Assembly: GCA_963702025.1 (NCBI GenBank)
Contig: OY969699.1
Coordinates: forward strand, 192,001 to 256,000
Length of the DNA stretch: 64,000 nucleotides
Direction of reading: 5' to 3'
From: an uncultured bacterium
GTDB lineage: Bacteria; Babelota; Babeliae; Babelales; Vermiphilaceae
Part shown: in pieces, positions 27,001 to 30,000 of the stretch
How the letters are laid out: every line of letters starts with the position of its first letter
Numbering within the stretch: position 1 is the first letter of the stretch
Made by a program: the position numbers

Positions 27001-30000
27001 CCGTCACGCAACGGGCAATACTCTTTAATAAAATCAAGCGTTTCTTCTTGCGCAACGGCAACGGTCATAGATGATTTGGTAACCGCGTCTATTAAGCCAG
27101 TTTTAGTGTGTTGATTACGCACCCAGCTATCCATTAAATCAAGCGCCGCTTGCGGCTGGTGTATAATTAATGCAGGCCCTTCTGCAATTATGTTAAGTTC
27201 ATTATCGGTAATAATTGTGGCAATTTCTAAAATGACATCAATATCCACGTTTAACCCGGTCATTTCCAAGTCCATCCACACCAAATGTTCTTTTTTATTC
27301 ATAAACTCCTAAAAAAATTAATATACTATAGTATTATTATTACATTAATTATTAGTTTTCACCTCAAAAAGAATCAATATTTATGACAAAACTTCGCGTT
27401 GGCGTTTTAATGGGCGGTAAATCTATTGAGCGGGAAGTGTCTTTTAACTCAGGGCGCACCATTTGTGATCACCTTGATACCCAACGGTACACCATTATCC
27501 CGTTATTTCAGACAATCTCCAACCGGTTATTTATTCTTCCGTGGCATTTTTTGCATCGGGGAAAAATTAGTGATTTTGAGCAACGGCTCACTATCCAAGC
27601 GCAAGAAATAATCTGGGATGATTTAAAAAATCATATTGATTTTGCCTATATCGCAATGCATGGCAAATATGCCGAAGACGGCACCATGCAGGGAATTTGT
27701 GAAGTTTTTGGCATTCCTTACATCGGCTCAAAAGTGTTGGGTAGCGCACTCAGCATGGACAAAATAATGCAAAAAAAATTTTTGAATGCCAATAACATTG
27801 CCACAGCACGCGATATTGTAGTTACCCCGGATCAAATTACTCATTTTACCGCACATGCTGCTAAAATAATGCAACAAATGCAAGAAAAAAATATTGAATT
27901 CCCCTGCATTGTAAAGCCTTATAAAGAAGGATCCAGCTTGGGAGTCAGCGTTGCGCGTACACATGACGAACTTGAACACGCACTCATTAGTGCCTGCTTT
28001 ATTGATAAAAAAAATCCTCAATCGGTGCTGGTTGAAGAAAAAATAATCGGCATGGAGTTCACCTGCATAACCATCACCGATTATAAAACCAACACCATTA
28101 TTGCCTTGCCACCTACTGAACTGGTTGCCGATGCATCGGTTGAATTTTTTGATTATGAACAAAAATATATGCCCGGCAGAGCAACGGAATTTACACCGGC
28201 TCGCTGCAGCGAACAAATTCTTGAAAAAATAAAAAAAACCTGCATCAAGGTTATGCGTGCTCTTAATCTTACCAATATGTCTCGCATTGATGGATTTGTT
28301 AAGCAAGACGGCACAATTGTGATTATAGACCCTAACTCATTTTCCGGCGCTGCACCCAGCAGCTTTTTATTTCGAGAAGCAGCATTTTATGGCATGAGCC
28401 ACACGCAGCTGATTAACCATCTTATTGAAACAGAGCTTGAATCATACGGCATGTTGCAATCCATTCTTGACCAAGAACAAAAAGAGGCGACCATTATGCA
28501 AACTAAAAAAATTCGGGTTGGTATTTTAATGGGCGGCCCATCCAATGAGCGTGAAATATCTCTTGAATCCGGAAGAAATGTTACTTACAAACTTTCACCC
28601 CATAAGTATGAAGCATTACCTATCTTTGTAAGCAGTAGCATGGAACTCTTTCCGCTTTCCCATCAACAATTGGTACTCAATTCTACGCAAGAAATCTCAC
28701 AATCCCTTGATTCAAAAAATAAAATCACATGGCATGATTTATCACAATTAGTTGATTTTGTATTTATCGCTCTCCATGGTGGCCCGGGAGAGAATGGTGC
28801 GGTGCAAGGAACATTGGAAATGTTAGGGATTCCTTATAATGGTTCAAGTGTACTTGCAAGCGCCTTATGCATGGACAAATATAAAACGAATGAGTTTTTG
28901 CATTCACAAGGATTTGATGTCCCACGTAATATGTTGCTTGATAAACAAACATGGCTCAATGACAAACAATCTGTCATGGCAAATATTCTTGACACCTTAC
29001 CACTCCCATTGATCATAAAACCTCATGATGATGGATGCAGTGTAATGGTACAAAAAATAAAAAAATCAGCAAATCTGGAACCGGCCATCAACCTGATTTT
29101 TTCACACGGTAAAGAGTATGCACTTATCGAAGAGTGCATAATGGGTATGGAACTTACCGTCGGCATTATTGGCAACGATAGCCCCCGTGCGCTACCACCA
29201 TCACAAGCAGTGTGCAATGCAGATATACTATCCATCGAAGAAAAATTTTTACCGGGCGCCGGCGAAAATCAAACACCCGCACCATTACCCAAAGATAGTT
29301 TGTATTTTGTGCAAAAGATCATGGAAGCAGTTTACGTGGCAGTTGGCTGCAAAGGCTACGCACGAATTGATTGCTTTTATCAATCGGCCGACCAAAGTCC
29401 AACGGGAAAAGAACGGGTGATTATCCTAGAAATTAACACCTTGCCGGGGATAACTCCCGCCACCTGCATTTTTCATCAGGCGGCGGAGGTAAATATAAAG
29501 CCAATGGATTTTATTGATTTGATTGTAACACTCGGTTTGGAAAACCATCGATCGTCCGCAGATCTTCAGCAACCGATACAACAGCCTTCTGCTTTTGTGT
29601 GATTGCATCAAGATGAGTTGATATTTCATTTCTCATTTTATGCGCTGCAAGTACTGCGGATATGTCCCATAATTTAATCGAAAGATCGCGAGACCCCGAG
29701 ACTACTTTGTTAAAATCATTAAAAGCAGCTAAACTTTGGATCCACTGATCATGGCCAATAAGAATTGCCAGGCACTGTGGTTTGCGTAAATCCCATAATT
29801 TAATTTGAGTATCCCATGAGCCTGAAAGAAGATACTGCAATTTCCCATCACTAACTAAAGTAGTAATTCCTGAAGAATGCCCCTTAAATATTTTAAATTC
29901 TTTTTTATCCCGAACATCCCAGAGCCGGATGTAATTATCTCCCGTTGCACACGCAAAAAAGTCTCCTCTATCATCAATTATTTTCATACAAGAAAGAGTC

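What a model noticed while it worked through the whole genome (the two positions that open the first line are those of the whole stretch)
27383..29602. Tandem double D-Ala-D-Ala ligase: a Tyr-type and a Phe-type module in one 739-aa protein
The only Ddl of the genome (g00216) is two complete D-alanine--D-alanine ligase modules in one chain (1-349 and 378-715, 33% identical to each other). Both keep ATP-grasp and Mg2+ residues but differ at the omega-loop position that decides the second substrate: the N module has Lys-Tyr (Y262, as in dipeptide ligases; its Mg site reads D-P-N instead of E-x-N), the C module has Lys-Phe (F622), the residue of the D-Ala-D-lactate-forming ligases of intrinsically vancomycin-resistant lactic acid bacteria. 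The two-module form with exactly these residues is fixed in over 100 Dependentiae relatives, so the phylum is predicted to make two different D-Ala-D-X products with one fused enzyme; three VanX [...]
Evidence so far: Pfam Dala_Dala_lig_N + _C twice; halves align over 360 residues, 33% identity, E 3e-55. 1693 database proteins of 406-1294 aa match; the best 120 are 724-809 aa, 61-100% identical over at least 97% of the length, named only D-alanine--D-alanine ligase, MurC or ATP-grasp protein; named organisms are Dependentiae/Babeliales. In these 120: K261, Y262, D303, D316, P317, N318 and K621, F622, D663, E683, N685 each 120 of 120. A single active-site Phe or Tyr decides depsipeptide or dipeptide activity: PMC5996685, abstract and passages read; that Y262/F622 are that position rests on the (E/Q)K(Y/F)(L/M)PG motif matched to E. 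coli Y216 / Leuconostoc F261 from memory. Ddl is not mentioned in three TM6 [...]
(Added by a program. Inside this text positions count along the whole contig: contig position 192,001 is position 1 of the stretch shown here. "Call 12" and the like, gene names such as g00115 and contig names such as C1 are that model's own, and its searches are not shown. The text may have been shortened before it was handed on; [...] marks where a part breaks off. The agent that wrote the report below was given it as the finding of a first reader that could run no searches.)

Follow-up and report, generated by a model that had tools for sequence, protein, structure and literature searches.

The report
Two-headed cell-wall D-alanine ligase
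This gene really joins two different copies of the cell-wall enzyme D-alanine-D-alanine ligase in one protein, but the pairing is an old design shared by several bacterial groups and already described for plant chloroplasts, and the idea that the second copy makes a D-lactate-ended wall precursor rests on one residue and is untested.

Summary
Observation confirmed: one 739-aa ORF holds two complete Ddl modules (32.5% identical), the genome's only Ddl; Y262/F622 align with E. coli Y216. It is phylum-wide (184 of 189 good genomes have a Ddl domain, nearly all two) but not special to Dependentiae: the same unequal pair (N: Lys-Tyr, D-x-N; C: Lys-Phe plus Ser150-to-Cys, Tyr210-to-Leu, Leu282-to-Cys/Val) recurs in Bacteroidota, Patescibacteria and Bdellovibrionota; N and C modules each form one branch. 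Some genomes split it at the linker into neighbouring genes, and the halves are predicted to pack as a two-fold pseudo-dimer. Plant DDL is published as a fusion of two Ddls, and moss makes a D-Ala-D-Ala pentapeptide. The D-lactate reading is weak: module C does not group with the lactic-acid-bacterial Phe ligase or VanA, this genome has no detectable D-lactate source, and only 35 of 189 relatives have a D-2-hydroxyacid dehydrogenase. Best reading: a single-chain asymmetric housekeeping Ddl supplying D-Ala-D-Ala; what the remodelled C site does is open. This scan found the family before on other DNA (14 notes).

The parts
27383..29602 (+). ddl gene, 739 aa, two D-Ala-D-Ala ligase modules in one chain; only Ddl of the genome
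27383..28456 (+). Module N (aa 1-358): keeps E16, H93, E98, K127, K178, S184, K261, Y262, R301, D303, N318, G322 (E. coli E15, H63, E68, K97, K144, S150, K215, Y216, R255, D257, N272, G276); changed: D316 for E270, S321 for P275, F328 for L282
28457..28504 (+). Linker (about aa 359-374), helical in the model, no invariant column; the place where split forms break into two genes
28505..29557 (+). Module C (aa 375-725): keeps E389, H465, E470, K499, K546, K621, R661, D663, E683, N685; remodelled acceptor site: C552 for S150, L616 for Y210, E620 for A214, F622 for Y216, T694 for S281, C695 for L282
28166..28168 (+). Tyr262 codon (E. coli Y216 position), module N
28328..28330 (+). Asp316 codon (E. 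coli E270 position), module N; Glu in 4 of 80 relatives
29036..29038 (+).
29246..29248 (+). Phe622 codon (E. coli Y216 position), module C
26751..27302 (-). orn (oligoribonuclease), divergent neighbour; context only, no cell-wall operon here

Best explanation
A single-chain, asymmetric version of the normally homodimeric D-Ala-D-Ala ligase. An old duplication gave two unequal subunits that are inherited together, fused or as neighbouring genes, and pack against each other as a two-fold pseudo-dimer. It is the cell's housekeeping Ddl and the product that matters in vivo is D-Ala-D-Ala for MurF. Module N (intact Glu-Ser-Tyr triad) is the likelier working dipeptide ligase; module C still has every residue for ATP, Mg2+ and the first D-Ala but a rebuilt second-substrate pocket, and acts as a differently tuned or modulating partner rather than as a dedicated D-lactate ligase. 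Shown here: anatomy, conservation, distribution, shared ancestry of the pair, sole-Ddl status. Predicted: the pseudo-dimer. Inferred: the product and the division of labour.
For: Sole Ddl in a genome with MurC, MurD, MurE, MurF and Alr above their NCBIfam cut-offs and three transpeptidase-domain genes. Of 5 Ddl-less genomes checked, 4 have 0-1 Mur-ligase matches against 4 here; one (92% complete) has 5. One relative is fused to a Mur ligase (P0239). N modules (26 rows) and C modules (26 rows) each form one side of a branch (SH-aLRT 96 and 100, quick tree), with the same three subgroups in both. Split at the linker into adjacent genes in 5 of 80 GTDB loci and 5 of 6 stretches picked for short frames (two share contigs). 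AlphaFold2 pTM 0.86 for the whole chain; unlinked halves score 0.85 against a best control of 0.00 (mark reached by 116 of 157 solved and 2 of 215 mismatched pairs; runs agree in at least 95% of contacts, partner pLDDT at least 87); 25 of 32 interface residues of N have their equivalent in the interface of C. Asp316 changes only to Glu (4 of 80), as expected of a working metal ligand. Plant DDL is a fusion of two putative Ddls (PMC9954125), its loss blocks moss plastid division (same paper, citing Hirano 2016), and moss holds UDP-MurNAc-pentapeptide ending Ala-Ala (PMC9434261, Table 1). No D-lactate source in this genome.
Against: No enzyme assay exists for any bacterial member. The C-site residues are almost invariant across phyla (F622 104 of 104, C552 100 of 104; both 118 of 118), which argues for a distinct selected chemistry that 'same product' does not explain. 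The complex score may reflect likeness to solved Ddl homodimers, and interface residues are no better conserved than the module average (0.68 vs 0.72 in N, 0.76 vs 0.76 in C). I could not obtain a plant DDL sequence, so that plants carry the same residues is not tested here. The moss study does not say that it looked for a lactate-ended precursor (section read). D-lactate could come from the host.
Confidence: 0.55

Rival explanations
1. One reading: module N makes D-Ala-D-Ala and module C makes D-Ala-D-lactate in vivo, so one fused enzyme gives two stem-peptide ends.
For: F622 is at E. coli Y216; Y216F gives E. coli DdlB depsipeptide activity and the reverse change makes L. reuteri vancomycin-sensitive (PMC3378904, PMC5996685, passages). 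C552 removes a second member of the E15-S150-Y216 triad. Three D-Ala-D-Ala dipeptidase-family genes in this genome.
Against: No D-2-hydroxyacid dehydrogenase here: the only above-cut-off PF02826 match is a 6-phosphogluconate dehydrogenase; none for PF02913, PF09861, PF02142. In the phylum such a dehydrogenase is in 35 of 189 and PF01427 in 98 of 189 good genomes, against 184 of 189 for Ddl. The dipeptidases are below the VanX cut-off (best 211 vs 320 bits) and lie elsewhere. Module C is not in the branch of the L. curvatus Phe ligase or VanA; 1EHI is among its weakest Ddl matches (34th of 37). Moss precursor ends Ala-Ala (PMC9434261).
Confidence: 0.15
2. Two products, but the second is another dipeptide: one module joins D-Ala to a different amino acid (glycine, D-Ser or a bulkier D-amino acid). 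The pockets change in opposite directions at E. coli L282: larger residue in N (Phe), smaller in C (Cys/Val) with Leu for Y210 and Phe for Y216.
For: Reciprocal, conserved changes at the acceptor site in all three clades. A review notes plant dipeptides of D-Ala with other amino acids whose enzymes are unknown (PMC7432710, passage). An Asp/Glu-family racemase lies next to a dipeptidase gene in this genome. That L282 lines the acceptor pocket is recalled, not from a call.
Against: Scores against D-Ala-D-Ser ligase models are far below cut-off (151 vs 520 bits); no Arg at the L282 position; the racemase is not a VanT. No direct evidence for such a precursor.
Confidence: 0.17
3. [quoted passage not shown]
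For: D316 replaces a metal-binding Glu. Arabidopsis T-DNA lines that still express only the C-terminal Ddl show no plastid phenotype, and the authors suggest residual activity, which they say is unconfirmed (PMC9954125, passages).
Against: Module N keeps the full triad and 70 invariant of 355 positions against 77 of 350 in C; D316 goes back to Glu in 4 of 80 loci and to nothing else; a Bernardetia paralogue keeps a whole N-type module with only a remnant of C.
Confidence: 0.13

Closest known systems
Plant chloroplast DDL (Arabidopsis At3g08840, Physcomitrium PpDDL)
   Same: Two complete putative Ddl enzymes in one chain, reported throughout the plant lineage (PMC9954125); about 890-960 aa in gymnosperms (PMC12681378, Table S2 row); listed as acquired from Chlamydiae/CFB bacteria (PMC3493653, Table 1), which fits the Bacteroidota tandem form found here; a mostly Streptophyta cluster scores 0.96 by features to a tandem relative.
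   Different: Plant proteins are plastid-targeted and longer; no plant sequence was in hand, so shared active-site residues are not tested here; the papers read say nothing on unequal active sites.
Canonical D-Ala-D-Ala ligase (E. coli DdlB, PDB 2DLN/1IOV; DdlA; TIGR01205, PRK01372)
   Same: Each module has the fold (Foldseek E down to 3e-30, target TM-scores 0.81-0.92), 29-32% identity to DdlB and all ATP, Mg2+ and first-D-Ala residues.
   Different: Single-module homodimers there (dimer state recalled); here two unequal modules, each alone just under the family cut-offs (234.8 and 223.8 vs 245.65 bits for TIGR01205), with D-x-N in N and a rebuilt acceptor pocket in C.
D-Ala-D-lactate ligases: Leuconostoc LmDdl2 (1EHI) and lactobacillus Phe-type Ddl; VanA/B
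   Same: Phe at the Y216 position in module C, as in the L. curvatus Ddl.
   Different: L. curvatus Ddl keeps S150, Y210, S281, L282, all changed in module C; separate branch; no vanH/vanX beside the gene; no D-lactate source found.

Membership tests
D-Ala-D-Ala ligase family (EC 6.3.2.4, TIGR01205/PRK01372) | Ddl N and C domains, ATP-grasp fold | tested here: met
   Pfam twice each; model matches Ddl structures; whole protein above cut-off, each half just under
D-Ala-D-Ala ligase family (EC 6.3.2.4, TIGR01205/PRK01372) | E15, H63, E68, K97, K144, K215, R255, D257, N272 catalytic set | tested here: met
   Present in both modules, 120 of 120 relatives
D-Ala-D-Ala ligase family (EC 6.3.2.4, TIGR01205/PRK01372) | E15-S150-Y216 triad together with E270 in one active site | tested here: not met
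   Module N has the triad but Asp at 270; module C has E270 but Cys and Phe at 150 and 216
D-Ala-D-Ala ligase family (EC 6.3.2.4, TIGR01205/PRK01372) | ATP-dependent D-Ala-D-Ala synthesis | not testable with these tools
   Inferred from sole-Ddl status and the full Mur pathway
Plant-type fused DDL | Two complete Ddl modules in one chain | tested here: met
   plant description in PMC9954125
Plant-type fused DDL | Common ancestry with plant DDL (sequence or tree with a plant protein) | tested here: inconclusive
   No plant sequence obtained (supplement text lacks it); indirect only: Atlas cluster, donor assignment (PMC3493653), unchecked scan notes
D-Ala-D-lactate ligase (LAB Phe-type, VanA/B) | Phe (not Tyr) at E. 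coli 216 | tested here: met
   F622 in module C
D-Ala-D-lactate ligase (LAB Phe-type, VanA/B) | Sequence membership of the LAB or Van ligase groups | tested here: not met
   141.9 vs 550 bits for NF000206; separate branch from L. curvatus Ddl and VanA
D-Ala-D-lactate ligase (LAB Phe-type, VanA/B) | D-lactate supply (D-LDH/VanH or lactate racemase) in the genome | tested here: not met
   None in G000, 95% complete, one contig; 35 of 189 good genomes of the phylum; uptake from the host not testable
D-Ala-D-lactate ligase (LAB Phe-type, VanA/B) | Depsipeptide formation in vitro or in wall precursors | not testable with these tools
   No assay in the papers searched

The most novel reading that the evidence does not exclude
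The two-headed Ddl of Babelota, Bacteroidota, Patescibacteria and plant chloroplasts is a two-product enzyme: its second head is an independently evolved D-Ala-D-X ligase (X = D-lactate or a non-alanine acceptor) with a Cys/Leu/Phe pocket unlike VanA or the lactobacillus enzymes, so that whole phyla and moss plastids build mixed stem-peptide ends.
Probability: 0.3. Interest if true: 0.7.

Novelty: new member of a known kind. Interest (0 to 1): 0.35.

Why it matters
The fusion is known from plants and, in this scan, from many bacteria, so this gene alone is not new. What stays open is why an enzyme that normally works as identical twins has kept two unequal, intact active sites across several phyla. 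An assay on this compact, naturally splittable version would tell which head makes D-Ala-D-Ala, would test how far the single Tyr/Phe rule reaches outside lactic acid bacteria, and would bear on the unsettled question of what each half of plant DDL does.

Tried and rejected
Dependentiae-only fusion: rejected. Assembly artefact or recent duplication: rejected; single frame, halves 32.5% identical, equal GC (41.1 and 41.3%), fused in 75 of 80 loci by the script's label, of which four are cut or frame-shifted. Dead module: unlikely for either. Hidden second Ddl in families with a third PF07478 match: in 5 genomes looked at the extra match is weak and lies in a 500-530 aa frame; the two read are biotin-carboxylase-like by inspection. 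D-lactate dehydrogenase in this genome: the PF02826 hit is a 6-phosphogluconate dehydrogenase; two short glyoxalase-fold (VOC) proteins exist but no methylglyoxal synthase domain. Vancomycin data on a cultured member: Chromulinavorax survived a cocktail of ampicillin, vancomycin and rifampicin (10.1101/379388, passage), uninformative because all three failed. Plant sequence for a direct test: not found in supplement text; Hirano 2016 not held. Interface conservation gave no extra support. No relative in viral contigs for P0187. Promoter/terminator scan uninformative. The careful tree did not finish; the quick tree is used. Paper searches found no study of a bacterial tandem Ddl or of unequal sites; searches were for mechanism.

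Full report
Observation. Window 27383-29602 (+) is one open frame of 739 aa. Both Pfam Ddl domains match twice and the halves align at 32.5% over 360 columns, E 3.06e-55. It is the only Ddl in a one-contig genome rated 95% complete. Aligned with E. coli DdlB, both modules keep E15, H63, E68, K97, K144, E180, E187, K215, R255, D257, N272 and G276. Module N keeps S150 and Y216 (S184, Y262) but has D316 for E270, S321 for P275 and F328 for L282. Module C keeps E270 (E683) but has C552 for S150, L616 for Y210, F622 for Y216, T694 for S281 and C695 for L282. The Y216 placing is confirmed by the two E. coli structures that differ only there: N prefers 1IOV (117.6 vs 115.7 bits), C prefers the Y216F form 1IOW (128.8 vs 127.5).

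Distribution in the phylum. PF07478 matches 238 of 261 genomes, 184 of 189 good ones; by my reading of the table four of the 238 have a single match and the rest two or more, mostly in frames of 730-850 aa. Of 80 named GTDB loci (titles mostly Babeliales, Dependentiae, TM6 or uncultured) 75 were labelled fused (four of these cut or frame-shifted) and 5 split; C552, K621 and F622 stand in 79 of the 79 that hold module C; D316 is Glu in 4 and N318 is Gln in 2. Five of six stretches chosen for short frames are two adjacent genes, N then C, broken at the linker (two are the same contigs as). Of five genomes without Ddl, four have 0-1 Mur-ligase matches and one has five. The neighbour orn is conserved; there is no cell-wall operon here.

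Beyond the phylum. A search of 1.84 billion representatives gave, in its best 150, 104 proteins that my script could cut into two whole modules: 5 close forms, 34 of about 900 aa (names: Cytophagales, Bacteroidetes, Bacteroidia) and 65 of about 800 aa (relatives named Peregrinibacteria, Abawacabacteria, Berkelbacteria, Patescibacteria, Bdellovibrionota, Deltaproteobacteria). Y262 and D316 are 104 of 104 in N; L616, E620, K621, F622 are 104 of 104 and C552 100 of 104 in C. In 118 of the 120 proteins that could be cut, Y262, D316, C552 and F622 are 118 of 118. A quick tree of 63 rows (26 of the pairs, 11 single Ddls; SH-aLRT only) puts all N modules on one side of a branch (96), all C modules on one side of another (100), each divided into the same three subgroups; the Phe-type Ddl of Latilactobacillus curvatus and VanA lie among the single enzymes. 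So the pair descends from one old duplication and the Phe of module C arose apart from the lactobacillus Phe.

Structure. AlphaFold2 gives pLDDT 88.6 and pTM 0.86 for the whole chain, matching Ddl chains at target TM-scores of 0.81-0.92. The unlinked halves score 0.85 against a best control of 0.00 (mark reached by 116 of 157 solved and 2 of 215 mismatched pairs; runs agree in at least 95% of contacts; partner pLDDT at least 87). The interface is near two-fold: 25 of 32 N residues have their equivalent in the C interface. Ddl homodimers are solved, so this pass may be from likeness; that this is the usual Ddl dimer face is recalled. Interface residues are not more conserved than average.

The D-lactate idea. 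For it: Y216F gives E. coli DdlB depsipeptide activity and F258Y makes L. reuteri vancomycin-sensitive (PMC3378904 and PMC5996685, passages); module C breaks the triad twice. Against it: the L. curvatus enzyme keeps S150, Y210, S281 and L282, all altered in module C; Van and D-lactate ligase models score far below cut-off. This genome has MurC, D, E, F, Alr and three transpeptidase-domain genes but no D-2-hydroxyacid dehydrogenase, FAD-type D-lactate dehydrogenase domain, lactate racemase or methylglyoxal synthase domain. In the phylum the dehydrogenase is in 35 of 189 and PF01427 in 98 of 189 good genomes; kin are not independent, but neither tracks the ligase. The three dipeptidases are real, unlinked and below the VanX cut-off; two begin with hydrophobic leaders by inspection. 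Supply from the protist host cannot be excluded.

What is known. Arabidopsis and moss DDL are described as a fusion of two putative DDL enzymes found through the plant lineage; moss knockouts give macrochloroplasts; whether the C half alone works is called unproven (PMC9954125, passages; its Figure S3 sequence is a picture I could not read). Moss holds UDP-MurNAc-pentapeptide ending Ala-Ala (PMC9434261, passages and section 7). Moss DDL is listed as acquired from Chlamydiae/CFB bacteria (PMC3493653, passages); gymnosperm Ddl is 890-961 aa where complete (PMC12681378, passages and a supplement row). PMC4815162, PMC10784329, PMC7432710 and 10.1101/379388 were read as passages. Hirano 2016 was not held and is known to me through these papers. 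I obtained no plant sequence; kinship with plant DDL rests on architecture, length, the donor assignment, an Atlas cluster that is 94% eukaryotic, mostly Streptophyta, at 0.96 and unchecked scan notes. Searches found no paper on a bacterial tandem Ddl or on the unequal sites; the library lacks most subscription journals.

Mechanism. Most likely (0.55) a single-chain asymmetric Ddl that feeds D-Ala-D-Ala to MurF, N being the likelier working site: it has the triad, D316 varies only to Glu, and a Bernardetia paralogue keeps N with only a remnant of C. Module C binds ATP and the first D-Ala by its residues, but its acceptor pocket is rebuilt and its role is inferred, not shown. Rivals: D-Ala-D-lactate from C (0.15), another dipeptide from one head (0.17), reversed roles (0.13).

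Verdict. Real and conserved, a new member of a known kind. The scan had noted the family on other genomes 14 times; I had reached the plant-DDL lead before reading them (note). The unexplained, cross-phylum asymmetry keeps some interest: 0.35, or 0.7 if a second product is shown (probability 0.3).

Noticed in passing
L114:6001-7872 (Bernardetia sp. Wsw4-3y2 secondary replicon, NZ_CP147018.1): A 623-aa Ddl with a whole N-type module (Lys-Tyr, D-I-N) followed by only a degenerate remnant of about 150 aa where module C should be.
   Followed up: partly
P0239, P0142, P0173, P0244: Tandem Ddl further fused to a Mur ligase (P0239, MurF-like by inspection) or to PASTA domains (P0142, P0173); P0244 has a 200-aa N-terminal extension with no Pfam match at 1e-5.
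   Followed up: partly
window 26751-27302 (-): orn lies divergently next to or within a few kb of the ddl gene in most of the 80 related loci.
   Followed up: partly
L098:1450-2680 (G000:C1 about 1441540-1442770): A D-Ala-D-Ala dipeptidase (PRK10178 above cut-off) overlapping and downstream of an Asp/Glu-family amino-acid racemase gene.
   Followed up: no
window 18470-25544: Three long Gly/Asn/Thr-rich repetitive ORFs (1178, 551, 565 aa) with hydrophobic N-termini and no Pfam match; surface-protein-like.
   Followed up: no
short C-type proteins: Four of 120 have Asp in place of E683, the same shortening that is standard in module N.
   Followed up: no
G115, G007, G080, G081: Babelota genomes of 89-98% completeness with no Ddl and 0-1 Mur-ligase matches: lineages that may have lost peptidoglycan synthesis.
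   Followed up: partly
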